Positions 120 through 37,225 of a stretch of 37,225 nucleotides of DNA are shown here, one piece after another. A program made the position numbers and the translations under genes. The notes beneath the pieces are model-generated. The model was not told where the DNA came from, did no database searches, and was given only the letters and a program-made list of their open reading frames with translations. The stretch is taken from positions 1 through 37,225 of the IMG/VR virus record IMGVR_UViG_3300007735_000690. One strand, 5' to 3'. Every line of letters starts with the position of its first letter. The first letter of the stretch is position 1. This stretch comes from a virus (lineage: Duplodnaviria; Caudoviricetes).

Positions 120-141
120 TCTGCATAGCTTCTCTATCCAT
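1..141 (-). CDS. 5' part of a hypothetical protein spanning the circular junction (joins 36957-37106)
   Basis: ATG at 141 overlaps the end of ORF 134-460 and reads MDREAMQMALEALVEINKLS...ALETKR, continuing into EWVGLTADEI... at the other end of the window. Confidence 0.8.
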   Translation of the reverse strand, partial: MDREAMQMALEALVEINKLSIGENAICLPAEIDGAMDALRQALETKR

Positions 142-460
142 GATTCTTCTCCCGCAGCTTGGCTTCAATGGCTCTTGCAAAAGTCGTATCAGTCCAATCC
201 GCAGTCCAATCTCGGCTATAACGAACGCTGTTTATTTCCTCATCCGTCAGACCAACCCATTCTCGCTTTGGTGGTGCGGTGTACAGTGGTACATCGTCTG
301 GGTTATATCCGATCAGGTTGCCTTCTTCATCAAACTTTGATGATTGATACCACCAAAGTTCCCCCTTGCCTCCATCGGTAATCCACGCCACCGGCTCTTG
401 CTTTTCTTCCAGTGCCTGGCAGCAATGCCCACAGCGTGGACACTCAAAGTCTTGATTCAT
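134..460 (-). CDS. Hypothetical phage protein (CPRCGHCC N-terminus; EWVGLTDEEI...AIEAKLREKN module)
   Basis: ATGA overlap with the upstream gene, GGGGGTG RBS, and modular motifs shared with the junction-spanning gene. Confidence 0.75.
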   Translation of the reverse strand: MNQDFECPRCGHCCQALEEKQEPVAWITDGGKGELWWYQSSKFDEEGNLIGYNPDDVPLYTAPPKREWVGLTDEEINSVRYSRDWTADWTDTTFARAIEAKLREKNHG

Positions 461-1092
461 CGATCACCCCCGAAAAGTTTTTGGACAATAAAGCAATTGC
501 CATCCGTAAATGATGGCGGGAAACCCCTAGCGCCTAACGTGTTTGGCAGCGTTCCATAAACACGGAAAGCAGACGGATTCAGTGCTTCACTAATATCGTT
601 CACGGCTTGCTTTACCTCTGGCGAATACTTTTCATCGTTGTAATCATCAAAAACTATCCACCCGCCAGGCACTACAAGTTGGCTGTACATTTCCCAATCT
701 TGCTTGACGCCATTACCCGTGTGATCACCGTCGATAAAAAGTGCATCAACACTTAAATCGCTAACACGCTCAAATGTCTCTTTTTGGTGGGAATCGCCAA
801 GTACATAACGAAAAGTGTTTTTATTGGGATTGTTCGCTTTGACGTTTTCCTCAACAACCGATTGCGGAATTGGAGCGCCAACATCAATACTGACTGCGTG
901 CATCCGATCTTTTTGCAGCATCAAAATCGCGCTTGCCCCGGCATAGCAACCAATCTCCAAGTAAGTTGGCCGATGTACGCCAGGCAACGGCAAGTCATAA
1001 AGAATATGAAAATGATGATGAAATGTTTGGTTTCCTATGCGATCAGAAATGCGCCTAACGATCTCTAACGATTCAATCGTTGGCGTAATCAT
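457..1092 (-). CDS. Class I SAM-dependent methyltransferase (Methyltransf_24-like)
   Basis: YLEIGCYAGAS motif I, LFIDGDH, LVVPGGWIVFDDY. Confidence 0.85.
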   Translation of the reverse strand: MITPTIESLEIVRRISDRIGNQTFHHHFHILYDLPLPGVHRPTYLEIGCYAGASAILMLQKDRMHAVSIDVGAPIPQSVVEENVKANNPNKNTFRYVLGDSHQKETFERVSDLSVDALFIDGDHTGNGVKQDWEMYSQLVVPGGWIVFDDYNDEKYSPEVKQAVNDISEALNPSAFRVYGTLPNTLGARGFPPSFTDGNCFIVQKLFGGDR

Positions 1093-1730
1093 CGATCACC
1101 CCCAAACGCGTAAATTGGAAACTTAGACAAATCCGGGTAGCTCATCTCAATGTCCTCCATCACCTTTGGCGAACCATCACGATGCCAAAATTGATTCATG
1201 AGCAATAAGCCACGCGCCGCCACGTCCGGCATCATGTAAAAGTTCCAACCGATCATGTCGAAATGATCGTCGTGATAGGAACACTCACGCCGCCCACTGA
1301 AACGCGCACGCTTAAACCACAGCATGGCGGCATAGTCATCAGTGAGAATCGCACCGCCCTTGCCTAGCTTTAGGTGCTTATAAGGCCCAGTGAACGACAC
1401 GCACATATGCGAGCCTTTGACATACATATTGGAGGTAAACGAAAGCGCAGCATCCCACACACGCGTAGGTGCTAATTGATACGCGCCCTTAATCGTTCTT
1501 CCTTCAACCGGATAAAAGTCAACCTTCGCGCCGGCATGAATCACTTCGCAAGGCACGCCTGGATAAGTTCTTGCCGGTAGCCTAATCGTCGTTCCCGCCA
1601 CACGTTCATAGGTCAACGCTAAGAACAAAGCGTTGCAGCAGTTATCTACCGCCACGCAGTATGGTGCGCCGGTGTATTCGGCAACCTTTTCTTCAAACGA
1701 TTCCGTTATTTTGTAAACGCCATCCGCCAT
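1089..1730 (-). CDS. DegT/DnrJ/EryC1/StrS-family PLP-dependent sugar aminotransferase (short form)
   Basis: FEEKVAEYTGAPYCVAVDNCCNALFLAL, DAA, SFTGPYKHL (PLP Lys), GKGGAILTDD, GWNFYM; only 213 aa. Confidence 0.85.
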   Translation of the reverse strand: MADGVYKITESFEEKVAEYTGAPYCVAVDNCCNALFLALTYERVAGTTIRLPARTYPGVPCEVIHAGAKVDFYPVEGRTIKGAYQLAPTRVWDAALSFTSNMYVKGSHMCVSFTGPYKHLKLGKGGAILTDDYAAMLWFKRARFSGRRECSYHDDHFDMIGWNFYMMPDVAARGLLLMNQFWHRDGSPKVMEDIEMSYPDLSKFPIYAFGGDR

Positions 1731-2348: not shown

Positions 2349-3419
2349 TCAAAGTGAGGTCAAATTTGGCGCGGGTTTGCGCCCAAGTGTTAAGCCACTT
2401 GATTCAGCGGTGACCTTATCCGCGAATTCCTGATAAAGATTTGGGTATTTCTTTTCTAACTGCGCGGGCGTAATAGGCACTGTTTTTACAGCACCTTTGT
2501 GCGCACTCAGCAATCCCGCCATCAGCTCATCGCTTTGCCATTTGCGCGTTGCACGCTTCGGTACAAGCGTCCAATCATGCAACTCACGCCCTGCTTGCAG
2601 CGCGTTTGTAACGCGCTCTTTGATGGCCTCGATTGTGTGCAGCGCATCGTCCGCCACGTTCATCATGGCGTTCAATTCCTCTTCCGTAGCTTCATCAATT
2701 TGCTTTGGCGTTACTCCGGCAAAACTTTCTACCCTGGCAATCTTTTCCGGGCACTTTGACCTGGCCGGGCACCAGCGGCAGTGCTCACCTTCATTGGTTG
2801 GCGGGAACGGTGCCAACGTGTCGCGCAATGCCGGTTCCAACACGTTGGCGGACCAATCAATGAGTTCAGCCTTCGTCATGAACGCCAAACTGATCTGCGG
2901 TTCCTGCGTTGGCTGAATGATTGCAAGCGTAATGTTCTTAACGCTTGCCGGTGCCTTTTCCAATGCGCCTAGCGCGTAAATCTTAAGTTGCGGACCTTCA
3001 ACATCCACCTTAATGCGACCAGTTTTAAGGTCTCCAACAACCAGGTCAACATCGTTAAAGCAAACAAGATCGGCAGTGCCGTACACATCAGCGCCAGCGT
3101 AATTAGGAATCCTAAGACGTTCTTCGATGAGGCAAGCACTTTCCATGCGCTTTTCCAGTTCGCCCGCAAAGTCCGTATAGACCTCGGCCCAAGACGCCAT
3201 CTCTTCGCTAATCGCAACACCTTCAAATTCCTTTCCAACAAATGTATGTGGCGCTGAACCTGTCAGCATCACCGTTTCCGCTAATGCGTGCACCGCTGTT
3301 CCAATCTTTGCAGCCTCTCCTGCTTCGCGTGGCGGCACGCCTCGTGAGAGTTTGATCGATGCCGGGCACGCTATCCATCGCTCGGCGGCTGATGGTGACC
3401 ATTCTGAGTGTGCGTTCAT
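2349..3419 (-). CDS. DUF2800-like PD-(D/E)XK (Cas4-like) exonuclease
   Basis: HSEWSPSAAERWIACPAS, GTAVHALAE, GTAD...GDLKTG, QLKIYALGA, HCRWCPARSKCP. Confidence 0.85.
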   Translation of the reverse strand: MNAHSEWSPSAAERWIACPASIKLSRGVPPREAGEAAKIGTAVHALAETVMLTGSAPHTFVGKEFEGVAISEEMASWAEVYTDFAGELEKRMESACLIEERLRIPNYAGADVYGTADLVCFNDVDLVVGDLKTGRIKVDVEGPQLKIYALGALEKAPASVKNITLAIIQPTQEPQISLAFMTKAELIDWSANVLEPALRDTLAPFPPTNEGEHCRWCPARSKCPEKIARVESFAGVTPKQIDEATEEELNAMMNVADDALHTIEAIKERVTNALQAGRELHDWTLVPKRATRKWQSDELMAGLLSAHKGAVKTVPITPAQLEKKYPNLYQEFADKVTAESSGLTLGRKPAPNLTSL

Positions 3420-3802
3420 GACTTTTTCCTCTTGTGTTTAAGTTTTAATTTTTTGCGTTTTAGCTTGCGCTCTTCGTGATGCAAGATTCGGTGACAGTTG
3501 GAGCAAACCGCAATACACTTTTTGATTTCCTCGAAGGCTTTTCCGTAAGACCCTGCCGTGACAAGCGCATTGATGTTTCGTTTTGGCGGCGTTCGATCAA
3601 CGTGGTGAAAGTCAATGACCGCTTCGTGCTGTATGCCGCACCGCTCGCAATGAAGTGATGCTTTGTATGCTCGCCACTTTGCACGCAATACGCGGTTTGA
3701 CGCGACACTTGCCTTGATTGTTTTTTCTCGATTTCGCTCGTAATACTTTCGAGCATAAATCTTTTGCTTGGCGGTTCTAGTCTTCGGGTCTTTGTACGGC
3801 AA
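3416..3802 (-). CDS. HNH endonuclease
   Basis: CERCG...DFHH...KCIAVCSNCHRILH zinc-finger HNH motif; TTG start. Confidence 0.8.
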   Translation of the reverse strand: MPYKDPKTRTAKQKIYARKYYERNREKTIKASVASNRVLRAKWRAYKASLHCERCGIQHEAVIDFHHVDRTPPKRNINALVTAGSYGKAFEEIKKCIAVCSNCHRILHHEERKLKRKKLKLKHKRKKS

Positions 3803-4272: not shown

Positions 4273-4495
4273 CGAAACGCTCAAGCACCCAAGTGCGCAT
4301 CCACAACGGGCGCATGGTCTGTTTGGCGTGCCGCTCTTCAAGCCATGTCGTTGTCCTTGTTATGCCTCCAGGTGCAACCCAGTGATAGGGTTTGACGTAG
4401 TGCGGCACATAGGGCATACCCTCCAACATGTATACGGGCATGGGATGCAATTCTGCTTTCTTGTCGCTGTTGTTGATGTTCATTTGCCTTGCCAT
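4250..4495 (-). CDS. Hypothetical protein
   Basis: Fills the gap in the minus-strand operon and overlaps the upstream stop. Confidence 0.6.
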   Translation of the reverse strand: MARQMNINNSDKKAELHPMPVYMLEGMPYVPHYVKPYHWVAPGGITRTTTWLEERHAKQTMRPLWMRTWVLERFVETTQDL

Positions 4496-5163
4496 TTATC
4501 TAAGTAGCGCTGCGCTGATTCTTTCCACGTCGGACCCATCAAGCCTTGACTGTGATGGATGGCGGAAATCGATGACACATAAATTGACAAACCTTTCTCT
4601 GTGAATTGGCGGCAAATATCCATGTCGTAATGATGAAAGGTGAATTGCTCATCAAACCTTATATCGTTGTCATGAAACGTCTTCGAGTAAGCCGCCATAA
4701 ACAAACCGTCAATCAGAGACACTTGACGATTAGGCGATGCAAACACATCCCAACTTGTCAAATACTCGCCGTTGCCACGCGCTACGCAACCGGCCCATGC
4801 CTGGCGATCCGATAACGTGCCTTCCATGTCCGTGATCGCCCATGATGTTTGACCTGGTGATGGTTGACAGTTACCCGCCAATCCAACCAGGTGATGATCA
4901 TCGAGTGACGCGCCCAGGCGCATGTACCAGTACCAATCAACAATCTCAACGTCATCGTGCACAAACACGAGTAACGCCGGATCGTTCTTGGCGGCTTCGA
5001 TCGCTTCGTTATAGCGTTGGCACAATCCTGCCGTGTTGTTAGTGAACAGTTGCGCCTCAATAAATGACAGATGCGCAAAGCGCTGAATCGTTACACCTAG
5101 CGGTGTTCCTGCAAAATCTTTTCTGTTATGGCGAGTGCACGCCACAATCCTTATCGGTATCAT
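4480..5163 (-). CDS. Glycosyltransferase-like protein (GT-A fold, Glyco_tranf_2_5-like)
   Basis: RYNEAIE, LVFVHDDVEI, LVGLAG, LIDGLFMA, RFDEQFTFHHYDMDIC. Confidence 0.8.
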   Translation of the reverse strand: MIPIRIVACTRHNRKDFAGTPLGVTIQRFAHLSFIEAQLFTNNTAGLCQRYNEAIEAAKNDPALLVFVHDDVEIVDWYWYMRLGASLDDHHLVGLAGNCQPSPGQTSWAITDMEGTLSDRQAWAGCVARGNGEYLTSWDVFASPNRQVSLIDGLFMAAYSKTFHDNDIRFDEQFTFHHYDMDICRQFTEKGLSIYVSSISAIHHSQGLMGPTWKESAQRYLDKWQGK

Positions 5164-5822
5164 TCAATCCCCCATTGTTCTAAATAGTGTGGCCTGTGTG
5201 ATTTCATCCACGGCAATGACTGCTGAAGATTCGATTGCATGTCAACGCCAATCGTCATTGACCCAACGTGGTGGATGTAGCTACGGCTAATCCAATGGCT
5301 AAAGCCAAGTGCCACAAGGTCAGCGCACATCACATCATCGCTAAACCAATTCAATGGCGGAAACGGTGCTTGCTCATACGCTAGGCGCGGCAACCATGCA
5401 AATAAAGGCGATACCACTTTGTTTTTCTTAACCGCGCCTTCGCCCTTCCAACGCATACCAACAAACTGGTCCCTATCGTCTCGCGGTATGCGAATGTTTT
5501 GCGAAGGGCGCACATAGTCGGATCGCGCTGCAACGAGTCCCAACTTAGGACCACACAATTTCTTTAACGCTTCAACATCTTCCATGAGCAATCGCAACGA
5601 GTAAGGCGCAAGCACAATGTCATCGTTGGCGATGATTACGCCATCGTCGTCGTTTGACATGAAACGCTCAATGGCCCTGTTGTAATCATCACCAAACGTT
5701 GGCCCTTTTCCGTTCTCAATGCAAAGGTCAACTTCTGGCGCATAAGCATCAACACTTGCCGCCAAAACGTGTAACGATCCCTTATCAGGCTTGATCGTTG
5801 ACACAATCATTTTTATGCCCAT
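5160..5822 (-). CDS. GT2-like glycosyltransferase
   Basis: TFGDDYNRAI, IIANDDIVL, NWFSDDVMC, YIHHVGSMTIG; start taken at MGIKMIV. Confidence 0.7.
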   Translation of the reverse strand: MGIKMIVSTIKPDKGSLHVLAASVDAYAPEVDLCIENGKGPTFGDDYNRAIERFMSNDDDGVIIANDDIVLAPYSLRLLMEDVEALKKLCGPKLGLVAARSDYVRPSQNIRIPRDDRDQFVGMRWKGEGAVKKNKVVSPLFAWLPRLAYEQAPFPPLNWFSDDVMCADLVALGFSHWISRSYIHHVGSMTIGVDMQSNLQQSLPWMKSHRPHYLEQWGIE

Positions 5823-5974
5823 TCGCCAATCCTCTTTAGGCACTCGAGTGCGCGGCGGCGAACAACAGAATCGTTAAAGCGTCCATAGCTTTCTAAACCT
5901 TTGAGCGTTTCGACACAATCCGCCAGATTCTCTAGCGCAATGTTCAAACGCTTTTCAAGTTCGCCAACTTCCAC
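5813..5974 (-). CDS. Hypothetical coiled-coil protein (start uncertain; ORF open to 6175)
   Basis: GTG immediately after the stop of 5976-6188; helical sequence ELEKRLNIALENL. Confidence 0.5.
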   Translation of the reverse strand: MEVGELEKRLNIALENLADCVETLKGLESYGRFNDSVVRRRALECLKRIGEWA

Positions 5975-20068: not shown

Positions 20069-20782
20069 TCAGGCAGCGTCCTTTTTGCGAAGTTCGGTTT
20101 TAAGACCGATTGATGCTCGGTAAGCATCCTCTTGAGGACGGATTGCCCAGGTATGGTCGTGCTTGTACTCCCAGGTTCCTATGTGACCTATTTTTTTGCT
20201 TAGGTCATGATCAATATACAACGGAATTGAATTGTCGCGCAATAACTTGCAAAAGTATATGTCTTCGCCCATGTAGCCCTTAGCCGCCACATCCCATGGC
20301 GTAGCAAACCAAGGCATTTCGATGGCGCGAAACACGTTTGTGTCAACCATCATCACGCCAGTGCCTACGGCATCAACTTGTTCAACGCCTGTGTCATGCT
20401 CGCCGGTATAGACAGGCACCTTGCGTTGGGTTTCTGGATCATAGTTCGCCGCAGTCGGTCCCACTGGCATCCGCCTGCGCGGGCAGTTGGCAGCAACAAC
20501 GAGTAAGTCGCGGTCAAGCAACTGCTTAATCGTATCTTGCGGAAAACGCATATCGCTATCGATAAACAGCACCACGTCAGCGTTGTTTTCCATGGCGGTC
20601 ATTACCAATTCTGAACGCTGGCTTACAAGCAACGTCCCCTTGGAAATGTTGACGTTTACTGCGTCATTTGGATGGTTCGCCACATGAAACGCCACAGCGT
20701 TTACAAGGTCAAACGCAAAGTCTGAATGCACTTCGTCCCTCGCAGGGACGCATACACTAATAATTCGTTTCTTATCCATCAC
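20069..20782 (-). CDS. GT-A fold glycosyltransferase-like protein in the head module
   Basis: ISVCVPARD, LFIDSDM (DxD), VGTGVMMV, GEDIYFC, IGHIG. Confidence 0.75.
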   Translation of the reverse strand: MMDKKRIISVCVPARDEVHSDFAFDLVNAVAFHVANHPNDAVNVNISKGTLLVSQRSELVMTAMENNADVVLFIDSDMRFPQDTIKQLLDRDLLVVAANCPRRRMPVGPTAANYDPETQRKVPVYTGEHDTGVEQVDAVGTGVMMVDTNVFRAIEMPWFATPWDVAAKGYMGEDIYFCKLLRDNSIPLYIDHDLSKKIGHIGTWEYKHDHTWAIRPQEDAYRASIGLKTELRKKDAA

Positions 20783-21140: not shown

Positions 21141-21740
21141 TTAGGTCGAAAGGTCAGCCGCCAAACCATGTGCTTTCTCGTTGTAGATGGCAAGGCCATA
21201 TTCAGCGAGGAGCAAGCGCTTTTCAGCATCGCCCGTTGTTGCAAGCTCAACTTGCTGGAACGGACGAAGGAAATGCACACCGGCGTAGTCAGGTGACAAC
21301 ACAAACGCGTCACGATCACGTTGGAACCTATTAGGGACAATGTTCACTTGGCCGAAGTCTCCGACATATACATCAGCCGCGCCAATGATCTGCGCTTGCT
21401 TACCAGCAGGCACATCACGATAACGCGTTGCGATACCGTTGAAGCCAGAAACAACTTGCTTGTTCTTGGCACCAACCATCACAATCGAAGGATCGCCGCC
21501 CTGTTCCCACACTTTCTGAAGCACATTCTTGAGAATGGTTTCAGTGAATGCGCGGGTTACGCCATCGCTGCGATCATCGTTAGGCAGCGTGGTGTAAGAA
21601 GGATCAGCACCGTTCGTACCCTTGTCGGTGTTGGTCTTAATGAACGCGAGCAACGATCCGGTTTTCTGGGCCGTTGTCGAGTCACCAGCGGATGCTGCCT
21701 GATTGGCTAGCATGATGGTTTCCATATCGCGCTTCAGTTC
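21141..21740 (-). CDS. Major capsid protein, exon 2
   Basis: Begins ELKRDME, the natural continuation of AYQLAKRAA; DVYVGDFG, ELATTGDAEK, NEKAHG. Confidence 0.9.
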   Translation of the reverse strand, partial: ELKRDMETIMLANQAASAGDSTTAQKTGSLLAFIKTNTDKGTNGADPSYTTLPNDDRSDGVTRAFTETILKNVLQKVWEQGGDPSIVMVGAKNKQVVSGFNGIATRYRDVPAGKQAQIIGAADVYVGDFGQVNIVPNRFQRDRDAFVLSPDYAGVHFLRPFQQVELATTGDAEKRLLLAEYGLAIYNEKAHGLAADLST

Positions 21741-22004
21741 CATATTGTTCATCAAGGTTCGCTACCACCTTGACCGCTTTCGCAGCTTTGTGTTTCCACA
21801 AAGATCAGACTATATCTTCATCCTCGACACTTTGAGGAGCCAGGCGCTTCGGATCGCTTGATCCTACGAGGTTTCCCTCTAGTCGTTGAACCTTCCCTTT
21901 CGGGCTTGGCTGCTGATTGTCTTTCCGGTGCGATTTCCGACGAAGAGTTTCCAGCAATTCACCTGGTTTCAATTACAAGTTACCTTGTAACGGGCCTCAC
22001 ATTA
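21741..22004 (-). ncRNA. Group I self-splicing intron (IA2-like, ORF-less), 264 nt
   Basis: Exon ends in U and intron ends in G. P/Q/R/S elements AATTGCTGGAAA, AATCAGCAG, GTTCAACGACTA, AAGATATAGTCT are present. P1-P9 helices including P7.1/P7.2 can be drawn. Confidence 0.93.
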
Positions 22005-22364
22005 AGCCGCACGCTTTGCCAACTGGTAGGCCAATTCTGACTTGCGGCCTGCTTTGTTGACAGCTTCAACCGTACCGGAAATCACCACAGTCTTACGAGA
22101 AATCTGAGTGTAATTGGTCAGTTGAACGGTTGGCGTTACAGCGTCATACGTCGAAATGTCATCACCTTGCAGTTGCGCGTTTGCGGTGGTGTTGTCCGCC
22201 AACGTGTCTGTCTGCCACTGGAACAGCGTGTTGCTAGCCGTACCACGTCCAATGTTGTTCATGAACGGTGTGGTTTCAGGACTGATGTTGTAAATCTGAT
22301 TGCTTAAGTCCTCACGAATACCCTTTGCAGAGTAAGTGAGGAAGGTGTTTGATGCGATAGTCAT
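22005..22364 (-). CDS. Major capsid protein, exon 1 (SU10/DUF5309-like; 319 aa when spliced)
   Basis: GIREDLSNQIYNISPETTPF, FQWQTDTL, NYTQISRK, ELAYQLAK; AAAGGA RBS; follows the scaffold gene. Confidence 0.9.
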
Positions 22365-22375
22365 TTGGGTTTCCT

Positions 22376-23392
22376 TTATATGAGATGTTCAAACAGTTTG
22401 GCAGCGTCACGGACGTTGCCGGTTTTTGCAAGGCGCTGTTTGGCTCGGACTACTTCACTCGTGGAAACTTTGGCGGACTTAGGGTTACCAGGTGCAATGA
22501 CTTTGGACTGCTGTACGGTTGGCGGCTTAGGCTTAATCGTTGCCTGTTTCGCCGTGATCCGGTCGTACAACATTGCTTTACGAAGTAACTTGACAACGCG
22601 GTGATCAGCCACGCCCTTCAAATCATCTTCCTGAAAGCCTTCCTTCAAACCAAATTCAATCAAAGCCGCCTTTTCGGATTTGGCCGTATCAGCGTTCTTC
22701 CATTCAGGTATGGCCTCCACAAGAAGTTGTGCTTCTTGCTCAAGCCTGGCCTTCATTGATCGTTGCACTTCGGCCTGCTGCAACTGATTCAAGCGTTGGA
22801 GTTCGGCTTGTGATGCCGCCAATTTCTCGTTGCGCTGACGTTGCAACTCGGTTTGCCGCACCCATTCGATTGGATCGTCCCTGTATAGACTCTCCATATC
22901 AATCGGGTTTTCCTGCTGCTGTTGGATTTGCTGTTGCAAAGCCGTAAGCAATTGAGCGTAAGTTTGCCGCTCTTCACGCACCGCGTTCAGCTCGGCTTCA
23001 GCGGCCTTGCGCTGTTCAGCCAATGCTTGCGTTTTGCGTGTGTAGTCAGCCGTTCGCTGGTAGCCGTTGATCAACTCATTGAGTTCAACCTCTTGTTCTT
23101 TGCCATCAATCTTGACGGTGAACTTTGGTGGCTCGCTGGATTGCTCTGACTCTTGAGCGTCTTCGTCTGACTCGCTCGATGCTTCAACGTCTTCGGACCC
23201 TTCGCCTTGCTCTTCCGCGTCTGTCTCTACATCGCCAACATCATCGGATTCGGCTTGCGCTTCATCCGTTTGCGCCTTGGTTTCTGTTTGTTCTCCGGGT
23301 TCGGCAAACATCGACTCAAAGGCTTTGGCGGCTTCCGCCACCGTCATCCCCGCTGTGCTTTCGCTTTCAACGGTTGCTAAATTCTCACTCAT
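22376..23392 (-). CDS. Capsid scaffolding protein
   Basis: Acidic N-terminus, VKIDGKEQEVELNELINGYQRTADYTRKTQ, coiled coils, RLAKTG..RDAA C-terminus. Confidence 0.85.
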   Translation of the reverse strand: MSENLATVESESTAGMTVAEAAKAFESMFAEPGEQTETKAQTDEAQAESDDVGDVETDAEEQGEGSEDVEASSESDEDAQESEQSSEPPKFTVKIDGKEQEVELNELINGYQRTADYTRKTQALAEQRKAAEAELNAVREERQTYAQLLTALQQQIQQQQENPIDMESLYRDDPIEWVRQTELQRQRNEKLAASQAELQRLNQLQQAEVQRSMKARLEQEAQLLVEAIPEWKNADTAKSEKAALIEFGLKEGFQEDDLKGVADHRVVKLLRKAMLYDRITAKQATIKPKPPTVQQSKVIAPGNPKSAKVSTSEVVRAKQRLAKTGNVRDAAKLFEHLI

Positions 23393-27273: not shown

Positions 27274-27303
27274 ACACTAGCACATTCGCGCATCAATGCG
27301 CAA
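27274..27303 (-). promoter_or_regulatory. Candidate promoter for the head operon
   Basis: TTGCGC, 18-nt spacer, TAGTGT with an extended -10 TG, in a rare intergenic gap. Confidence 0.3.
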
Positions 27304-28231
27304 GATTCATGCGCAACGCGTGGTAATCCTGAAGAAATCCGCTCATGCTGGCAAGTTTGTTAAACGCCATATCCGCTGACAAACGCGAGTGAAATAAACG
27401 CAACTGCGGCCTGCGCTCCATCTCAGCCCAGTAAGTTTGCAAAACCGTACGTCCCCAATCTTCAGCGGTTACGCGATTGATGTTGCCGCCAAGGTATTCG
27501 TAGCGCATGAACATTTCCCAATCCACAATCCCTAATGTGTGGCGCGGGTTGTCTTTATTGGAGTCTTGGTTTGCGTGCAAACGAAACGCCCCCAGGTGCG
27601 CCCCACCGCCTACCGCCGGCCCGTGGCGCGTGGCTTCCAGATACGAAGTCACGTCACCCAAATAATGCCTCGGTGCCAACTCGCCAAGTGGCGCGTAGGT
27701 CATGGTGAATGCGCACTTGGAGCGATCCATCATCACAAACGAAGGCTCGCCAATAAAGTTCTTGTGCATCGCCATAAGCCGCAAAATGTTCTCGCGTGAT
27801 GACTTCATCAGTTCATCTTGATCAATAAAACCTGGTGCGCGAAGAAAACGCCCGGCACCATCAATCCAATGGCGTTGATGCCAAAACATCACGGCGTCGC
27901 GGTGATGATCCGCCAAATCGACCAAGTAGGACGTTGAAGATGGGTAAATCACATCATCGTCATACACAAAGCGCACTAAGTCGGAATCTGCCTGATCCCA
28001 AAGATAAGCGTAATGCGACACTTGATCGCCAGGACAGATAAGGTGTGTGTCAATGACTTCAAAGTCATAGCGCTGCGCCATATCGTTAATCATGTGGTGG
28101 TCATTTTCATCAGGGCTGTGATTGCCAATGATGACTTTGATGCGCGGATAAGTTTGCGCGTCAATTGAGGCTAATGTGGTGTATAGGTGCTCAGGCTTAT
28201 ACGCCGGAACGAGAATGGTTACGGGTCTCAT
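27293..28231 (-). CDS. GT2-family glycosyltransferase
   Basis: VTILVPAYKPEHL, RFVYDDDVI, NFIGEPSFVM, AFRLHANQDS. Confidence 0.85.
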   Translation of the reverse strand: MRPVTILVPAYKPEHLYTTLASIDAQTYPRIKVIIGNHSPDENDHHMINDMAQRYDFEVIDTHLICPGDQVSHYAYLWDQADSDLVRFVYDDDVIYPSSTSYLVDLADHHRDAVMFWHQRHWIDGAGRFLRAPGFIDQDELMKSSRENILRLMAMHKNFIGEPSFVMMDRSKCAFTMTYAPLGELAPRHYLGDVTSYLEATRHGPAVGGGAHLGAFRLHANQDSNKDNPRHTLGIVDWEMFMRYEYLGGNINRVTAEDWGRTVLQTYWAEMERRPQLRLFHSRLSADMAFNKLASMSGFLQDYHALRMNLAH

Positions 28232-28697
28232 GATTTACTTTCAAAATAATTGACCACAAAAATCCGCCAAACACTTTGGCAACAAATTGCATCGCAATGA
28301 TGTGCGGCATAAGAACGCCAAAAGCAACAGTTGGAAACAATAATGAATCAACTAGAGCGCCAACCGCATTACTTGTATTTGCTCTCACTTGCCATGTTCC
28401 TTTAAGCCTCGCAAATACCGACCAATCAATCGTAGCGGCAGCAGTAAATGCAACAGCAGAGGCAAGCGCAATTTTTCCGGTTGCAGGGTTTAGAAGTAAT
28501 GTAAGCAATCCAGAAACAAGTATTAGGCAACCCATCTGCCAAATCTTGAGTCTTACATGCAACCAATCTCTAAGCGTTAAGTCAAGACCAATAAACAAAA
28601 AAGCATTGAGCGGGCTAATTGCTGGCCCAAATGCCGCTACCGAAAGATTAGCAAGCGTCATTGCGATGGCATAAATTGCAATAGCTATGTAAAGCAT
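28197..28697 (-). CDS. VUT-family (YhhQ-like, queuosine precursor) transporter
   Basis: About 5-6 TM helices; LANL, FIGLDLTLRD, IALASAVAF, DWSVF, SNAVGALVDSLLFPTVAFG, QFVAK; start taken at MLYIAIAI. Confidence 0.8.
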   Translation of the reverse strand: MLYIAIAIYAIAMTLANLSVAAFGPAISPLNAFLFIGLDLTLRDWLHVRLKIWQMGCLILVSGLLTLLLNPATGKIALASAVAFTAAATIDWSVFARLKGTWQVRANTSNAVGALVDSLLFPTVAFGVLMPHIIAMQFVAKVFGGFLWSIILKVNHETRNHSRSGV

Positions 28698-29368
28698 AAG
28701 TTCTCCTGTACGGGTCTGCGTTTCCAATGATTAGGTGGGTTTTCTGAGTCAATACGCTTTGCCATGCAATAAGCACATTCATTCATGCTTTTATGATTGA
28801 CAGCAACATTTGTTGAGTCTGCGCTTGATAAAGGCCAGCGTTCGAGCCCCTGCCCTAACATCCGCATTCCATGCGTCCAAGGTAGCCGACCAAATGTTTT
28901 TGCAAGCTGGTTGAATGTTTCATCCATCCTGCCCTGCCACTTTGCATCGCCGACATTCCAGTACTCACCAGATGATCCGAGGCAAACTCGACCCCAATCG
29001 TCAACAAGTTCGCAAAGGTAATCTAACGATAAACCTAGATGCCAGACCGGAATGCCTAAAGACTTTGGAAACGGCCAAGTTGCAATCATCTCACGCTGTT
29101 GACCTTCCGGCCCATCAATTACATCAGGAACCACCCCCCAATGCGGATGTCCAAGAATGGGGTCTAACCATTGATAAAACCCATCAGGATCAAATGGCAA
29201 ACCTCGTGTCTTTGCGCTAAACGCACCGTTATCCAACATGAGCGATTGACCAATTTTTAAGCAAACCTTCAAATCTCTTGGGTCAGCGTAAGAAATGCAA
29301 AAATGCTCTCCGGCCAAAGTCTCTAACACCGACCTGGGCGTTATTGGCGTTCCATGAAAATGAATCAA
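28685..29368 (-). CDS. TGT/DpdA-like (base-exchange transglycosylase-fold) protein
   Basis: LMLDNGAFS, VVPDVIDG, IPVWH, VCLGSSG, HGMRM, SSADST in TGT-barrel order; TTG start overlapping the upstream TGA; adjacent to VUT. Confidence 0.65.
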   Translation of the reverse strand: MIHFHGTPITPRSVLETLAGEHFCISYADPRDLKVCLKIGQSLMLDNGAFSAKTRGLPFDPDGFYQWLDPILGHPHWGVVPDVIDGPEGQQREMIATWPFPKSLGIPVWHLGLSLDYLCELVDDWGRVCLGSSGEYWNVGDAKWQGRMDETFNQLAKTFGRLPWTHGMRMLGQGLERWPLSSADSTNVAVNHKSMNECAYCMAKRIDSENPPNHWKRRPVQENLCFT

Positions 29369-29547
29369 CGTTTCCCCCAACGCTTACGCTCAAGCTCGGC
29401 AAGTTGTACCAGTTCACGCGTGCGGCGTTCGAGTTCGATCACCATTTCTTCAAGCACTTCCCATTGCAATTTTTCGTACTCGCCTCGTGGAAAGTTCTCA
29501 AGCAATCCATTGACCCAGGCTTTTCTCGCCATATCGTTCAGGTTCAT
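29365..29547 (-). CDS. Hypothetical protein
   Basis: Overlap-coupled chain. Confidence 0.65.
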   Translation of the reverse strand: MNLNDMARKAWVNGLLENFPRGEYEKLQWEVLEEMVIELERRTRELVQLAELERKRWGKR

Positions 29548-30249: not shown

Positions 30250-31674
30250 TTAAACAACCGCTCTTAAGTTCCTCTTAATCGGCTTACCCCACTGCGAGTT
30301 ATAAGCCTTACCGTACAACGCCGTTCCTGCATCGCTGGCAAAGGTCAACGCCAAAGCATCAGCCATATCAGGTGATCCAATCCCGCGTTTCCGCATCTCG
30401 TCCTTGCTCTCTAGCTTCATCTTCCCGTTGCTATTAAACGAATAACGCGGTGAGACAAGTTCCGCCAAAAGCGACTCATCTTTAGGAATCTTGCAGTCGC
30501 GCTTTTCCAACCACGCTTTCATCTTTCCCCATAACTCAGCACGCAAGTTCACATAAATCGTTCCCATGGCGGGAGACTCAGCCACGTTGATCCCACGCGC
30601 AGGAAGATTCAATTCGCGCAAGCGGTCCACAACACCGGCCCCTAAGCCAATCGAATCGACAAGGATTTCAACGGGCCTGTCTTCTGGCTTCATGGCCTCG
30701 TACTCGGCGACCACCGCGCCCGTGGTCTGCATCAAATCCAACCCACGCCACTTGCGTATCTCAGTCACCGCATTACCTTTACGCTTTGCCAACGCCGTGG
30801 CGTCCGTCCCAAATCGCGCTACATCCAAACCCCACACCGTTTGCGTATCCGTCGTTTCAACGTCACGGTGAAAAGCGCTGTCCACCAGCTCAACGCCAAT
30901 CAAGGTATCGTCATCGGTGCGCGGAAACTCACCCAACACGCGAACACGGAAAGCGTTGGACTCTTCGCCATACCTTGACGCCATATCCTTGATATAGGCG
31001 TCGCTAACCCTTTTAGAGTCATAGCAGGACACGCGACGTGTCCACCACTCATCCTTCAATCGGTTATGCGTGTCAAAGAAAAACCCGCTGGACTTCGTTG
31101 GGTTACCCAACAAAATCGTCACAGCGTTATGCCCCGACATGGAACCCGCTGCCGCCTCGAACACGGACTCAGGGATACCAGATGCTTCATCCGCCACAAG
31201 CATCACATGGTCCGAATGCACACCCTGCAATGCTTCAGGTTGCTCGGCACGCGATGTACGGGCGGAGATAAACGCTTCCGTTGGCGATGACTTCAACTCA
31301 ATCCGATCCGTTTTCGGATCAAGCAACTGCCGCCACACATCAGGCAATTCCTTTACCCAACGCTTCAACTCAGCAAACAGTGCGTCATACAACTGGCTTG
31401 TCGTTGGCGCAGTCACCACCACTTTCACCGGATAACGGCAAAGCACAAACCAAATCATTGCCCAGGACGCAGCAGTCGATTTACCCACACCGTGACCTGA
31501 CCTTACGCTGATCTTTCGCTCGCCATCCGAAATAGCTTGCAAAAACTCAATCTGCCAAATATCAGGCTCAACGCCAATCACTTCGCGCACAAACAACGGT
31601 GCGTTGTTCGCGTACCGATCCAAGGCACGCGCAAACAACTTCACCAACTCATGATTCTTTAACTCTTCATTCAC
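30250..31674 (-). CDS. terL: Terminase large subunit
   Basis: SGHGVGKS Walker A, MLVADEAS Walker B, LLGNPT, GLDVARFG and SPDMADAL nuclease motifs; GTG start inferred. Confidence 0.95.
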   Translation of the reverse strand: MNEELKNHELVKLFARALDRYANNAPLFVREVIGVEPDIWQIEFLQAISDGERKISVRSGHGVGKSTAASWAMIWFVLCRYPVKVVVTAPTTSQLYDALFAELKRWVKELPDVWRQLLDPKTDRIELKSSPTEAFISARTSRAEQPEALQGVHSDHVMLVADEASGIPESVFEAAAGSMSGHNAVTILLGNPTKSSGFFFDTHNRLKDEWWTRRVSCYDSKRVSDAYIKDMASRYGEESNAFRVRVLGEFPRTDDDTLIGVELVDSAFHRDVETTDTQTVWGLDVARFGTDATALAKRKGNAVTEIRKWRGLDLMQTTGAVVAEYEAMKPEDRPVEILVDSIGLGAGVVDRLRELNLPARGINVAESPAMGTIYVNLRAELWGKMKAWLEKRDCKIPKDESLLAELVSPRYSFNSNGKMKLESKDEMRKRGIGSPDMADALALTFASDAGTALYGKAYNSQWGKPIKRNLRAVV

Positions 31675-32323
31675 GTCCAAGCACCTTTGCAACGCCAGCG
31701 TGCGTAATCGTCACGCCATGCAATTTCATCACTTCACCGGCAATCTGACGCAGCGACATGGACCCCTTCAAAGCCTTAATCGTTGCAATGGCGGCTTGCT
31801 GCTCGGCAACAGGCTCAAGGGTCGCTGCCTTGCCAGCACCTACAACGCGAAACCCAAAAGGCGGCAACCCCCCAACGTGCCCTCCAGCCTGACGCTTTGC
31901 CGCCTGGCCTACGCGCTGGCGATCCTTAATCACTCGCCTTTCGTGCGTCGCAAATGCCGCCATGATCTCAAGCATCAACTGCCCATAAATATTCTTCTCA
32001 TCCGTTACATCGCCATGCCCATTGATGATCAATCGAATGCCGCGCTCCTTGAACGCATGAACGGTGTTCAACGTATCCATCGAGTTGCGGCTAAACCGAT
32101 CCAGTTTCGCCACAATGATCACATCACCAGGTTGTGGCGTCACACCGTTTGCCGCCAATCGATCAAGAAAATTCAAATGCCCCGAAACGCCAGCATCCTC
32201 AATAAACCGATCAACCGTCAAGCCATGCGTTAACGCGTTGCCGGTCACTTCCCTGCGTTGCGTGTCAAGGCTTGTGCCATTGGCTTGCTCGTCAGTCGAT
32301 ACGCGCAAATAACCGTAGTTCAT
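31667..32323 (-). CDS. Small serine recombinase (resolvase/invertase family)
   Basis: YGYLRVST catalytic Ser, EDAGVSG, VAKLDRFSRN, FATHERRVIKDR, C-terminal SLRQIA HTH. Confidence 0.92.
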   Translation of the reverse strand: MNYGYLRVSTDEQANGTSLDTQRREVTGNALTHGLTVDRFIEDAGVSGHLNFLDRLAANGVTPQPGDVIIVAKLDRFSRNSMDTLNTVHAFKERGIRLIINGHGDVTDEKNIYGQLMLEIMAAFATHERRVIKDRQRVGQAAKRQAGGHVGGLPPFGFRVVGAGKAATLEPVAEQQAAIATIKALKGSMSLRQIAGEVMKLHGVTITHAGVAKVLGRE

Positions 32324-32403
32324 AACGCCATCCAAATCATCGTTGCGTACAAAGCGCCGAACATTGCGCCGCCAATGATCAATGTTGCTGTTGTGGATTT
32401 CAT
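32320..32403 (-). CDS. 27-aa hydrophobic peptide (not in the ORF track)
   Basis: MKSTTATLIIGGAMFGALYATMIWMAL; AGGA RBS; ATGA overlap with the recombinase start. Confidence 0.65.
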   Translation of the reverse strand: MKSTTATLIIGGAMFGALYATMIWMAL

Positions 32404-34176: not shown

Positions 34177-36249
34177 TCAAAATCCTTCCTGATTAATCGG
34201 CTTGATCCACACCAAATCGTTTCTTATGGCGGCAAACTCAAGCTCAACTAACTTATCCTTCACTTCCTTCCAACGCTTCCTCCGATCACTATCCTCCACA
34301 TCGTTTCCTAGCCTGGCGTACACCTCATCCCGCCAACGCTCTAACGTCACCACGCGATGGCGTTCACCCTGAACGATCTGGTATTGCCCTTCCGTCTTCA
34401 CGATATGGCGTAACGCCTCCCTACCCATCGACTGATGCTTACCGCGTCCTGCGTTTGGCTTTGCGTTTTGTGGCGGTCTAAAGCCAACGCCATCGGGTAA
34501 CTCACCCTTAAATGGTTTAACCACGAGCGTATTGGCTAAGTCATCCTCAAACCCCAGGTTGAGTTTGGCGGCTGGCGTTTCGTGCGTTTCGTTCGTTTCC
34601 TGCTGATCAAAGTTCACCGTTTCCATGGAGAAATGAATCTCCACACCATCCTTGCCATCCTTTTGCTTGGTTACCCGCAACGTGCCTGACATTTGATCGG
34701 TATGGCGGGTAATCTCAATCTGCGTATCCACAGCACCTAAAAAGCTAGAGTGACCGCGTAAACCTAGCGAAGCATCCTTGCCACTATGGTGGACAACGAG
34801 CAAGGCTGCGCCCGTGGCTTCTTGCAGGCGTCCACAATTGCTGATGAAACTACCCATGTCTTCGGACGCGTTCTCGTTGCCGCCGCCAAAGGCGCGGGCT
34901 AAGGTATCAATGATGATCAATTTCGGACGCTGGATTTCGGACGCTCGTATGGCGGCTATCAAGTCAGCAAAATCCTGATCAGATGACCTTAAGTTAACTT
35001 GCGACCTGATCACGCCAACGGGTATGTCCTTGAGTTCATACGCATGGCGTAAACCAGAAATCCTTGTCCCAATACCGCCATGACCTTCACCCGCAATGTA
35101 TAAGACCTCACCGGCATTCGGCACTTCGTGCGCCAGCCACGAATCCCCACTGGCGATCATGGCGGCTAAGTGCAGCGCGATAAACGATTTGAACGTGCCT
35201 GGCGGCCCATAGAGCGCCATGAATCCCTTCTCCGGCACAATCCTATCCACCAACCACTTAACCGGCTCATCCTTCGCGTCACGCCACATCTCAACCCTGT
35301 AGCGTTGCGCTTCCTGCGCTTCAACCACTTCGGCAAACGGTTCCTTCTCAGGCACAACGGATTCTGGTTCCGTTTCGGCTTTCTCATTTATCACTAGTCT
35401 TTGTGGCGGTACAACGTCCTCAAAGTCCTCAACCACTTTGGCTTCGGCAATGCGCCTGGCGAACTCCTCAAACGTGAACCCTCGTCCGATAAATTCTTCA
35501 GCGTCATCGCCAATGGCTGACTCGTCATCGGCCAAATCAACCACCTTGATCGCTTGCGCTACACCTTGCAAGTCCCTAACGACACGTTTGGCGTACTTCC
35601 AGCCAGGCCTATCGTTATCGGGTAGCACAACCACCAATCGACCATGAAACCATGGCGTTATGGCGGCAGGCCATTCGCTCGACCCCGCGTGCGCCGATAT
35701 GGCGACCACATCGAACATGCCAACCAAAAACTCAGCGGCCTTTTCGCCCTCAGTCACAAATACCGGCGCCATGGGTCTTGCGATCATCAGCGGTAAGCCA
35801 AACGGTATGGGCGTCCAATTACGAATCGTTGGTACGCGCTCGCCATTGATGAGATGATATTGGCGGTATGTCTTGCCACCACCTTCAACGTCATACCTTA
35901 CCTTTTGCGCTGTGACTTCACCATTTTCATCGATGTAATCCCACGCCATCACTTCTTTCATCGTTGGCGGCACAATCGGCCTGATACCCGATAAAGGATC
36001 ACGCGCAACCAGCGGGCGGTTCCAGTTCAACGAATTAGGCAAGTGCGGTTTGATGGCGGCAAACACATCCTCCTGATCGCACCCGCCAAAGCACTTAAAA
36101 AGAAACTTCTCACCGACTTGCGTAATCGCAAGCGATGGATGCCGATCACCCTTGCCGTTGCCATGCCCAGGTACCGGGCAAGACGCAAGCCACCCCCTCT
36201 TATAACGCTTGGCGTTACCAAGCGCTGCGGCTAATAGTTCTGCGTTCAT
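34177..36249 (-). CDS. Primase-helicase (Zn finger + TOPRIM + RepA/AAA_25 SF4 helicase)
   Basis: CPVPGH...CFGGC, VTEGEKAA, LPDND, GPPGTFKS, IIIDTLAR, VHHSGKD, RGHSS. Confidence 0.92.
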   Translation of the reverse strand: MNAELLAAALGNAKRYKRGWLASCPVPGHGNGKGDRHPSLAITQVGEKFLFKCFGGCDQEDVFAAIKPHLPNSLNWNRPLVARDPLSGIRPIVPPTMKEVMAWDYIDENGEVTAQKVRYDVEGGGKTYRQYHLINGERVPTIRNWTPIPFGLPLMIARPMAPVFVTEGEKAAEFLVGMFDVVAISAHAGSSEWPAAITPWFHGRLVVVLPDNDRPGWKYAKRVVRDLQGVAQAIKVVDLADDESAIGDDAEEFIGRGFTFEEFARRIAEAKVVEDFEDVVPPQRLVINEKAETEPESVVPEKEPFAEVVEAQEAQRYRVEMWRDAKDEPVKWLVDRIVPEKGFMALYGPPGTFKSFIALHLAAMIASGDSWLAHEVPNAGEVLYIAGEGHGGIGTRISGLRHAYELKDIPVGVIRSQVNLRSSDQDFADLIAAIRASEIQRPKLIIIDTLARAFGGGNENASEDMGSFISNCGRLQEATGAALLVVHHSGKDASLGLRGHSSFLGAVDTQIEITRHTDQMSGTLRVTKQKDGKDGVEIHFSMETVNFDQQETNETHETPAAKLNLGFEDDLANTLVVKPFKGELPDGVGFRPPQNAKPNAGRGKHQSMGREALRHIVKTEGQYQIVQGERHRVVTLERWRDEVYARLGNDVEDSDRRKRWKEVKDKLVELEFAAIRNDLVWIKPINQEGF

Positions 36250-36905
36250 CTAGGCGCCGCCGGATTGCCTTGCAGCACAATGCCTTCGTGCACTGGCCCT
36301 TTGAAGTCATGGCGGACAATGGACCCTGCTGAAATCTTCACGCGGTTAGCGATTTGCTTACCCGGAAGCACATAAGATCCAATACCCATGATCACAGACA
36401 CGCCGATCACGCAATTGCCACAAACCACCGTGTGGGGAAACATCGTTGTATATGAATGAACCACCGCGTCATGTCCCACGGTTGAATTCATATTGATAAA
36501 TACAAAATCGTTTAGCCGAGCATCCGCCGCCACAATCACTTGTGGCGTTAACACGCATCCATCTCCAATCTTCGCGTAAGGCGAAATGCTGCAACTCTTA
36601 TGGATATACGTTCCCCAACGCCCTTCTTCGTTTTTAGAAACAATCGCCAACTTTACATCGGGGTCCGCCACAGCCAATATGAATTCAGCACCAGGAAACG
36701 CGCCCTCTCGGATGCTCTCAACCACGGGATACTTGGCGGCATAACGCTTATTGTTAAACGGCTGCGTTGAAACCACGCACACAATCTCGTGCGTGCCTTC
36801 CTCCTCGATGTAACCGATCAACTCCTTGGCAAGCCCTCCTGAACCAAAGATGACGTACTGGTTTTTGCGTTTTGCCTTTTGATACACATTGTGATCGCCG
36901 CTCAT
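36246..36905 (-). CDS. NeuD/PglD-like sugar acetyltransferase (hexapeptide repeat)
   Basis: IFGSGGLAKE Rossmann-like start, left-handed beta-helix repeats, STVGHD catalytic His, GNPA end. Confidence 0.88.
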   Translation of the reverse strand: MSGDHNVYQKAKRKNQYVIFGSGGLAKELIGYIEEEGTHEIVCVVSTQPFNNKRYAAKYPVVESIREGAFPGAEFILAVADPDVKLAIVSKNEEGRWGTYIHKSCSISPYAKIGDGCVLTPQVIVAADARLNDFVFINMNSTVGHDAVVHSYTTMFPHTVVCGNCVIGVSVIMGIGSYVLPGKQIANRVKISAGSIVRHDFKGPVHEGIVLQGNPAAPR

Positions 36906-36956: not shown

Positions 36957-37225
36957 TTACCACTTGTTCTTCTCCTTTAGCTTGGCTTCGATGGATTCCG
37001 CAAAATCCAACACGTTCTGATGTGCATAGCAAATGTGAAACTCCACAGCACTGCCACTCGCTTTGTTGCATTTCCAGATTTCATCTGCGGTCAGACCAAC
37101 CCATTCACGCTTTGTCTCCAGTGCTTGGCGCAGGGCGTCCATTGCACCATCGATCTCCGCTGGCAGGCAGATGGCGTTTTCACCAATACTCAACTTGTTG
37201 ATTTCCACCAAAGCCTCTAGCGCCA
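36957..37225 (-). CDS. 3' part of the junction-spanning hypothetical protein (starts at 141)
   Basis: EWVGLTADEI...FAESIEAKLKEKNKW. Confidence 0.75.
   Translation of the reverse strand, partial: ALEALVEINKLSIGENAICLPAEIDGAMDALRQALETKREWVGLTADEIWKCNKASGSAVEFHICYAHQNVLDFAESIEAKLKEKNKW
37107..37225. repeat. Terminal direct repeat (right copy)
   Basis: Identical to 1-119. Confidence 0.95.

What the first reader, a model, noticed from the sequence alone, without database searches (positions are those of the whole stretch)
21741..22004. Compact ORF-less group I intron splitting the major capsid gene
Seen: the capsid ORF stops at ...AAG CGT GCG GCT|TAA and resumes in frame 264 nt later at ...AATATG|GAA CTG AAG CGC. 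Removing the insert restores AYQLAKRAA-ELKRDME and a 319-aa protein. The insert folds as a complete ribozyme: P1 GGCU/GGCC with the U.G wobble at the 5' splice site, P2 TTACAAG-GTAA-CTTGTAA, P3 CCAGGTG/CGCCTGG, P4 TGCTG/CAGCA, P7 GACTA/TAGTC, P7.1 GAGG-GAAA-CCTC, P7.2 GGATC-AAGC-GATCC, P8 TCCTC/GAGGA, P9 CTTTGTG-GAAA-CACAAAG, P9.2 TCAAGGT/ACCTTGA, and a terminal G. Known: extra helices between P7 and P3 typify the IA2 introns of phages (T4 td, Twort), most of which sit in DNA-metabolism genes. Inference: this small podovirus must splice its most highly expressed late mRNA to build capsids, and the intron has no homing endonuclease.
Basis: partly seen in the sequence, partly recalled or inferred. 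Interest (0 to 1): 0.9.

Follow-up and report, generated by a model that had tools for sequence, protein, structure and literature searches.

The report
Self-splicing intron splits phage capsid gene
The only major capsid gene of this small freshwater phage is interrupted by a 264-base group I intron with no gene of its own, which is predicted to splice itself out of the RNA; it is one of many such introns in this capsid family, and protein made from unspliced RNA would end in Ala-Ala, a likely signal for destruction.

Summary
Observation confirmed (minus strand, 22004-21741). Rfam RF00028 scores 109.5 bits. Intronless alleles fix both splice sites: 77 of 77 informative relatives are continuous here, and 19 of 35 close ones match the 24-base junction exactly. 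The helices covary across 21 relatives. P7.1-GUA-P7.2 places it in subgroup IA2, built like T4 td. It has no ORF, and no endonuclease gene is linked to it.

Capsid-gene group I introns are in print for crAss-like phages (PMC7886860). This capsid family carries ORF-less introns at 20 site classes, and the scan has noted such introns in at least 82 other genomes.

Added here: translation of unspliced RNA ends in Ala-Ala in 13 of 35 intron clusters, against 0 of 70 in the other frames. Here the exon supplies the Ala-Ala and the intron's first codon is the stop. Earlier scan notes proposed this degron idea on other DNA; I retested the sequence pattern. Splicing, degradation and the route of spread are not shown.

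The parts
22005..22364 (-). Exon 1 of the major capsid protein gene (codons 1-120, ends ...LAKRAA)
   Evidence: PF17236 SU10_MCP profile positions 4-113, E 4e-36; phrog_1328 major head protein
21741..22004 (-). ORF-less group I intron, subgroup IA2 type, 264 nt
   Evidence: RF00028 109.5 bits; boundaries fixed by intronless alleles
21141..21740 (-). Exon 2 of the major capsid protein gene (codons 121-319 plus stop)
   Evidence: PF17236 profile positions 115-291, E 5e-55; colinear with exon 1
22002..22010 (-). Exon-encoded Ala-Ala (22010-22005) followed by the intron's first codon, the in-frame stop TAA (22004-22002): unspliced RNA gives a 120-aa fragment ending in Ala-Ala
   Evidence: sequence; family-wide frame test; degron role inferred
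21993..22008 (-). P1: exon GGCU (22008-22005) with guide GGCC (21996-21993); U.G wobble at the 5' splice site
   Evidence: U.G in 15 of 18 aligned rows, and the other three P1 pairs change on both sides
21973..21990 (-). P2 hairpin with GUAA loop
   Evidence: 7 of 7 pairs with changes on both sides
21840..21966 (-). P3 (21966-21960 with 21846-21840), enclosing P4 (21956-21951 with 21916-21911), P5, P6 (21910-21908 with 21892-21890) and P6a
   Evidence: P3 98.6%, P4 98.4%, P6 100% of cells paired
21808..21885 (-). P7 (21884-21880 with 21812-21808) with bulged C 21885; G21884-C21808 is the predicted guanosine-binding pair
   Evidence: invariant in 21 of 21; role of the pair from established group I biochemistry (recalled)
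21851..21879 (-). P7.1 (21879-21868), GUA linker (21867-21865), P7.2 (21864-21851): the IA2 signature
   Evidence: both helices 100% paired, all 9 pairs change on both sides; criterion from PMC3428280
21752..21838 (-). P8 (21838-21821), P9 (21803-21786), P9.1 (21785-21774), P9.2 (21773-21752)
   Evidence: P8, P9.1 and P9.2 are less well supported in the alignment (76%, 55% and 66% of cells paired; loops misregistered)
21741..21805 (-). P9.0 (A21805 and U21804 with U21742 and A21743) and terminal G 21741
   Evidence: the two pairs are standard in 32 of 35 and 30 of 35 intron clusters, with A-U/G-C/U-A exchanges
22376..23392 (-). Head scaffolding gene directly upstream; no nuclease gene between it and the capsid gene
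   Evidence: phrog_3927; ORF list

Best explanation
A 264-base, ORF-less group I intron of subgroup IA2 sits between codons 120 and 121 of the phage's only major capsid gene and is predicted to splice itself out of the late mRNA, restoring the 319-residue capsid protein. Steps: (1) shown: the insert, its exact ends and an intact, covarying ribozyme fold. (2) Inferred from established group I chemistry: P1 presents the U.G site, a guanosine bound in P7 attacks it, and P9.0 brings the terminal G in so that the exons join. (3) Shown in sequence: ribosomes on unspliced RNA meet TAA at the intron's first codon, as in T4 td, and would release a 120-aa fragment ending in Ala-Ala. (4) Inferred: ClpXP-type host proteases likely destroy that fragment, which would limit harm to capsid assembly and help such introns persist in a heavily translated structural gene. 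(5) Inferred, weakly: the intron is a rare, probably recent, selfish insertion that moved without an endonuclease of its own, most likely by a nuclease acting in trans from another phage, or else by reverse splicing.
For: Rfam hit. The exons are colinear on Pfam and PHROG profiles, and this is the only SU10-type capsid gene of a complete 37,225-nt record. 77 of 77 informative relatives among the 80 fetched are continuous at this junction. On 21 related introns, 89.6% of cells pair and 51 of 71 pairs change on both sides; 0 of 500 shuffles reach this, and slid controls reach at most 47.3%. P9.0 covaries. 5' and 3' ends align with T4 td. An independent DNA run holds the intron unchanged. Ala-Ala-stop: 13 of 35 clusters in the exon frame against 0 of 70 in other frames (p 1e-7). 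The motif occurs 13:0:0 across frames while all stops are 78:60:57, at 9 of 20 site classes; natural ORF ends give 26 of 482. It is absent from 9 of 9 clusters at sites up to codon 29 and present in 13 of 26 further in (p 0.013). Ala-Ala-COO- is the ClpXP signal (PMC9035409 passage). Only 3 of 94 T-ending codons in this gene end an Ala-Ala.
Against: No splicing was observed. The two RNA runs laid skip exactly 264 nt, but their contigs differ from this strain and have no cover on the intron, so intronless alleles explain them. P10 is weak. Here the Ala-Ala is ordinary capsid sequence (KRAA or KKAA in 63 of 77 relatives), so for this single intron it may be chance. In 11 of the 13 cases the Ala codons overlap or adjoin the GC-rich guide or P2 arm, which favours GCN codons (read by eye). 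22 of 35 clusters do not end in Ala-Ala. In other host genes Ala-Ala is not significantly enriched in structural over enzyme genes (4 of 24 vs 0 of 13, p 0.28; a final Ala 9 of 24 vs 0 of 13, p 0.015; frames there taken from the longest ORF). Clusters are related, so p-values overstate. No linked endonuclease and no co-conversion tract were found, so the route of spread is open. The host and its protease are unknown.
Confidence: 0.9

Rival explanations
1. The intron splices, but the Ala-Ala ending is incidental: only the in-frame stop matters (it clears ribosomes so the RNA can fold), and Ala-Ala arises from capsid sequence here and from GC-rich guide or P2 arms elsewhere.
For: In-frame stops are a known feature (PMC3984707 section 11; PMC8565351 passages). 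The Ala-Ala here is exon-encoded and common in intronless relatives. Most Ala-Ala codons overlap helix arms.
Against: A structural by-product should fall in all three frames; it falls 13:0:0. P1 loops at sites 106 and 112 differ by multiples of three and keep the ending. In L076 the Ala-Ala lies in the P1 loop, apart from the guide. The ending is scattered over the intron tree.
Confidence: 0.4
2. The element is a dead intron in a defective genome that cannot make capsids on its own.
For: The allele is rare: no second copy in two exact-pattern scans or among 80 related loci; P10 is weak.
Against: Every core pair and invariant base is intact. The record is complete with terminal repeats. The same allele occurs in a run of a separate study.
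Confidence: 0.05
3. The capsid protein is made in two pieces, exon 2 starting at the in-frame TTG/ATG codons inside P9.2 and the 3' linker, without splicing.
For: An ORF caller finds 21141-21755 with an upstream start; in-frame ATGs lie at intron positions 250-252 and 262-264.
Against: All 77 informative homologues and the solved relatives 9NY2 and 7Z45 are continuous across the site. Those starts lie in paired intron structure.
Confidence: 0.02
4. The intron is a domesticated regulator that times capsid synthesis by guanosine level or ribosome load.
For: A 'molecular on-switch' idea is discussed for phage introns (PMC11878797 passage).
Against: Near-identical phages (88-97% over long stretches for G001, G002, G003, G005) lack it; introns occupy 20 different site classes sporadically, as expected for selfish elements.
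Confidence: 0.05

Closest known systems
T4 td intron (group IA2; NC_000866, fetched as L327)
   Same: Starts with in-frame TAA; similar P1/P2 at the 5' end; P7.1/P7.2; P9, P9.1, P9.2 and a similar 3' end.
   Different: td is 1017 nt as cut here and carries I-TevI; it lies in thymidylate synthase. This one is 264 nt, ORF-less, in a capsid gene, and has a longer P4-P5 arm.
Group I introns in major capsid genes of crAss-like phages (PMC7886860, passages read)
   Same: Group I introns splitting the MCP gene, several per gene in some genomes; computational evidence only.
   Different: Those were found through endonuclease domains in gut phages. These are all ORF-less (largest insert 328 nt of 119) in an SU10-type capsid family.
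Staphylococcus phage Twort orf142 introns
   Same: IA2-type introns in a structural (tail) gene (PMC11878797 passage; P7.1/P7.2 in the Twort structure, PMC1995217 passage).
   Different: Different gene and host group. That there are three and that they are ORF-less comes from an earlier scan note and recall, not from a paper read here.
Collaborative (trans) homing: ORF-less intron plus free-standing endonuclease (PMC3984707 passages)
   Same: ORF-less intron in a conserved phage gene; a free-standing HNH gene (PF13392, E 1e-11) does sit right after the capsid gene in one intronless relative, L070.
   Different: No nuclease gene lies next to the capsid gene in this genome or among the neighbour ORFs of intron-bearing loci, and L070's enzyme has no match in this genome.
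SsrA tag / Ala-Ala C-terminal degron of ClpXP (PMC9035409 passages)
   Same: Unfinished product ends in Ala-Ala-COO-.
   Different: Written into the gene by exon plus intron stop, not added by tmRNA; the tail is KRAA rather than LAA; degradation untested.

Membership tests
Group I intron (Rfam RF00028) | Covariance-model score above the family cut-off | tested here: met
   109.5 bits vs 50
Group I intron (Rfam RF00028) | U.G pair at the 5' splice site in P1 and terminal G | tested here: met
   junction fixed by intronless alleles
Group I intron (Rfam RF00028) | Core P3-P7 pseudoknot, P4-P6 domain and guanosine-binding pair | tested here: met
Group I intron (Rfam RF00028) | P9.0 / P10 at the 3' splice site | tested here: inconclusive
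   P9.0 present and covarying; P10 weak, at best 4 of 6 non-contiguous pairs
Group I intron (Rfam RF00028) | Guanosine-dependent self-splicing | not testable with these tools
   RNA contigs laid came from differing alleles; a second laying was not available
Subgroup IA2 | P7.1 and P7.2 joined by G-U-A between P7 and P3 | tested here: met
   criterion as stated in PMC3428280
Subgroup IA2 | Best score against subgroup-specific covariance models | not testable with these tools
   only the general RF00028 model is held; IA2 is itself heterogeneous (PMC11878797)
Homing (mobile) intron | Intron-encoded endonuclease ORF | tested here: not met
   264 nt, stops in all three frames
Collaborative homing cassette | Free-standing endonuclease gene linked to the intron and absent from intronless relatives | tested here: not met
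   whole-genome comparison with 5 intronless relatives; Pfam/PHROG scans of 57 window ORFs or exons gave only a sub-threshold HNH hit (E 0.03) at 3419-3802, in a region shared with intronless relatives; neighbours of intron-bearing loci
SsrA-like C-terminal degron | Product ends in Ala-Ala-COO- | tested here: met
   exon 1 ends KRAA then TAA
SsrA-like C-terminal degron | ClpXP-dependent degradation | not testable with these tools
   needs a bench assay; host unknown

The most novel reading that the evidence does not exclude
Capsid-gene group I introns are under selection to tag their own aborted translation products for proteolysis. Introns far enough into the gene to release a sizeable capsid fragment end it in Ala-Ala (13 of 26) or a hydrophobic residue plus His (7 of 26); introns within the first 29 codons never do (0 of 9). 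This intron got its tag free by landing directly after a natural Ala-Ala and opening with a stop. Intron site choice would then be shaped by host protein quality control, which would explain how ORF-less ribozymes colonise the most abundant virion gene at 20 or more sites.
Probability: 0.45. Interest if true: 0.7.

Novelty: new member of a known kind. Interest (0 to 1): 0.38.

Why it matters
As a single element it is an ordinary, compact IA2 ribozyme, useful as a 264-nt td-like model and as a warning that gene callers split such capsid genes in two. Its family matters more. Reviews describe phage introns as favouring DNA-metabolism genes and call the reason unresolved (PMC12350094, PMC11878797 passages), yet this subfamily is concentrated in capsid and tail-sheath genes and lacks endonucleases. 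The site is polymorphic among near-identical phages with an identical capsid protein, so intron-plus and intron-minus alleles can be compared directly. If the Ala-Ala endings are real degrons, they would show a link between intron placement and host proteolysis that my paper searches did not find described.

Tried and rejected
BLAST of the intron against cultured phages gave partial core matches only, none covering 80%. RNA runs X15 and X16 show the joined form but with other alleles' bases and no intron cover, so they were rejected as proof of splicing. No other RNA run could be laid, so X17-X20 remain unexamined. A co-conversion tract was looked for and not found: 1 difference within 60 nt of the junction to the closest allele. 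A linked homing endonuclease was not found; PF01844 was also absent from 5 intron-bearing records, 3 of them fragments. The host could not be assigned: relatives in bacterial genomes are only 35-52% identical. The AlphaFold model had pLDDT 31.6 and was not used. The intron tree does not place this intron in any supported clade; nearest identity is 74%. No sigma-70 promoter was found near the gene. The first two intron-calling scripts misplaced or missed some sites and were replaced. 6 of its 41 clusters were dropped as miscalls before counting (L343, L313, L394 site 121, L214, two of L113); 17 motif hits were skipped. Pro-stop tails were not enriched (3 of 35 vs 4 of 70). Paper searches for intron plus ssrA/degron found no description of natural intron-encoded degrons. 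The library lacks most subscription journals, and the supplement of PMC11878797 (its table of split phage genes) could not be read.

Full report
Observation. The feature is on the minus strand. Exon 1 (22364-22005) ends in GCGGCT, the insert spans 22004-21741, begins TAA and ends in G, and exon 2 begins GAACTG at 21740. The exons give 120 + 199 = 319 codons with no stop, and the insert has stops in all three sense frames. Rfam finds one family in the window, RF00028, at 109.5 bits over the whole model. The exons match consecutive parts of PF17236 (positions 4-113 and 115-291) and phrog_1328. The record is a complete 37,225-nt virus with terminal repeats and has no other SU10-type capsid gene. 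Its head genes are SU10-like, cultured relatives include phiM5 and LUZ24, and solved relatives are 9NY2 and 7Z45. Runs that hold the DNA are mostly freshwater or wetland metagenomes. The host could not be assigned.

Splice sites. A search with exon 2 alone found 223 viral stretches and kept the best 80. Three lack exon 1. All 77 others are continuous at this junction; L074's insert, which my script first placed here, lies 19 nt upstream. Of 35 close alleles compared base by base, 19 have the same 12 + 12 junction bases as the spliced window gene. A contig from a separate study (X3) spans both junctions with no difference, so the insert is not an assembly error.

Structure. On an alignment of 21 related introns, 89.6% of cells pair and 51 of 71 pairs change on both sides; no shuffle of 500 reaches this, and slid controls reach at most 47.3%. 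The structure was drawn on the window's sequence, which favours it over the slid controls, and P8, P9.1 and P9.2 score lower because loops are misaligned. P9.0 pairs in 32 of 35 and 30 of 35 clusters with exchanges of pair type. P10 is weak. P7.1 and P7.2 joined by GUA is the stated criterion for IA2 (PMC3428280, passages), and both ends align with T4 td. Over half of viral group I introns are IA2 (PMC11835236, passage).

Family. Three of the 77 capsid loci carry other introns, after codon 29, in codon 113 and after codon 247. Of these, 50 and 51 match this capsid family, against 14 of 121 for a looser core pattern; the sets overlap. Among 41 further clusters from the signature scans sent to PHROGs, 12 were other major head proteins, 3 tail sheaths, 3 ribonucleotide reductases, 1 RNA polymerase, 1 terminase, 7 endonuclease ORFs and 14 unassigned (tallied by hand). 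In the SU10-type genes my script called 136 introns in 41 clusters. I dropped 6 as miscalls and kept 35, which fall in 20 site-and-phase classes and measure 221-320 nt. No insert among 119 exceeds 328 nt, so none holds an endonuclease gene. Site 120 was seen only in this genome. The nearest intron is 74% identical, and introns from different sites group together with support in places, which suggests movement between sites.

Mobility. The genome is 88-97% identical over long stretches to four intronless relatives and about 70-77% to a fifth. Its main extra block against the close ones is a Vut_1/TGT-like gene pair, not a nuclease. No nuclease gene neighbours the capsid gene in intron-bearing loci, but one intronless relative (L070) has a free-standing HNH gene directly downstream and a diverged sequence at codons 118-120. 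No co-conversion tract flanks the intron. Trans-acting nucleases from other phages are therefore available in this family, but nothing here shows how the intron arrived. Reverse splicing remains unproven in general (PMC3984707, passages).

Unspliced product. An in-frame stop just inside phage introns is known (PMC3984707 section 11; PMC8565351, passages). Earlier notes of this scan suggested that capsid introns also end the truncated product in an ssrA-like tail, and I tested that on my own set. Ala-Ala precedes the first stop in 13 of 35 clusters in the exon frame and in 0 of 70 other frames. The motif falls 13:0:0 across frames where all stops fall 78:60:57. It occurs at 9 of 20 site classes, and natural ORF ends show it in 26 of 482. 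A hydrophobic residue plus His ends 7 of 35 against 0 of 70; that a C-terminal His can serve Lon is recalled, not read here. Neither ending occurs in the 9 clusters at sites up to codon 29, and one of them or Val-Ala occurs in 21 of 26 further in; that grouping was chosen after seeing the data. Ala-Ala-COO- is the ClpXP recognition signal (PMC9035409, passages).

Against the degron reading: clusters are related; most Ala codons overlap GC-rich helix arms; 22 of 35 clusters lack Ala-Ala; and in other host genes the structural-versus-enzyme contrast is not significant for Ala-Ala (4 of 24 vs 0 of 13). In this window the Ala-Ala is the capsid's own sequence, shared by 63 of 77 relatives (KRAA or KKAA), although only 3 of 94 T-ending codons of the gene offer it.

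Expression. RNA runs X15 and X16 give contigs that skip exactly 264 nt, but they carry other alleles' bases and no intron sequence, so they do not show splicing. Four further RNA runs could not be examined.

Known work. Group I introns in major capsid genes are described for crAss-like phages (PMC7886860, passages), and in a tail gene for Twort (PMC11878797, passages). Short introns averaging about 206 nt, with RNA support for splicing, are common in Jug phages (PMC12880540, passages). Reviews still describe a preference for DNA-metabolism genes as unexplained (PMC12350094, passages). Searches for an intron-encoded degron and for this capsid family found no description; these were listings only, and the library lacks most subscription journals. 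PMC1995217 and PMC7112951 were read as passages.

Verdict. A real, intact, ORF-less IA2-type group I intron, a new member of a known kind, at a site not seen in the relatives sampled. Interest is moderate and comes from the family context and the untested degron reading, which the scan had already noted on other DNA.

Noticed in passing
window 28197-29380 (-): A Vut_1-family gene and a queuine tRNA-ribosyltransferase-like gene are present here and in G004 but missing as one 1.1-kb block from the closest relatives G001, G002 and G005; possibly a 7-deazaguanine DNA-modification module (recalled role).
   Followed up: partly
L070:4667-5245 (+): Free-standing HNH endonuclease gene (PF13392, E 1e-11) directly after an intronless capsid gene whose sequence at codons 118-120 is diverged; a candidate homing endonuclease aimed at the capsid gene.
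   Followed up: partly
L102 / L207 (one contig): One SU10-type capsid gene carries four introns, at codons 24, 55, about 245 and 290.
   Followed up: partly
L076:1806-2099 (+): A phage with a capsid protein 99-100% identical to the window's has a different intron after codon 247, whose P1 loop encodes Arg-Leu-Ala-Ala-stop apart from the guide sequence.
   Followed up: yes
L157, L256 (codon 106); L378, L404, L229, L255 (codon 112/113): P1 loops at one site differ in length by multiples of three and stay open in frame up to an Ala-Ala or Val-Ala stop.
   Followed up: partly
L274, L335, L101, L103: Related introns in tail-sheath genes give unspliced products ending in Val-Ala or Ala-Ala in 4 of 5 cases.
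   Followed up: partly
L336, L269, L145, L182: A phrog_4645 endonuclease ORF ends close to the 5' part of the core of introns of this type; whether it lies inside the intron was not checked.
   Followed up: no
window 460-1730, 4483-5843, 20069-20782, 27293-28231, 36246-36905 (-): Several methyltransferase, aminotransferase-like, glycosyltransferase-like and hexapeptide acetyltransferase genes for a 37-kb phage; one glycosyltransferase-like gene lies inside the head-tail block.
   Followed up: no
window 31667-32335 (-): A serine resolvase/invertase gene sits between the small and large terminase genes.
   Followed up: no
window 89-290 and 36957-37225: Short repeated stretches near the genome ends match several places in relatives; not examined.
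   Followed up: no
run X1, record 8: The same sample holds a second contig matching the intron's P7.1-P7.2 region with 5 differences in 58 bases, so another related intron is present there.
   Followed up: no
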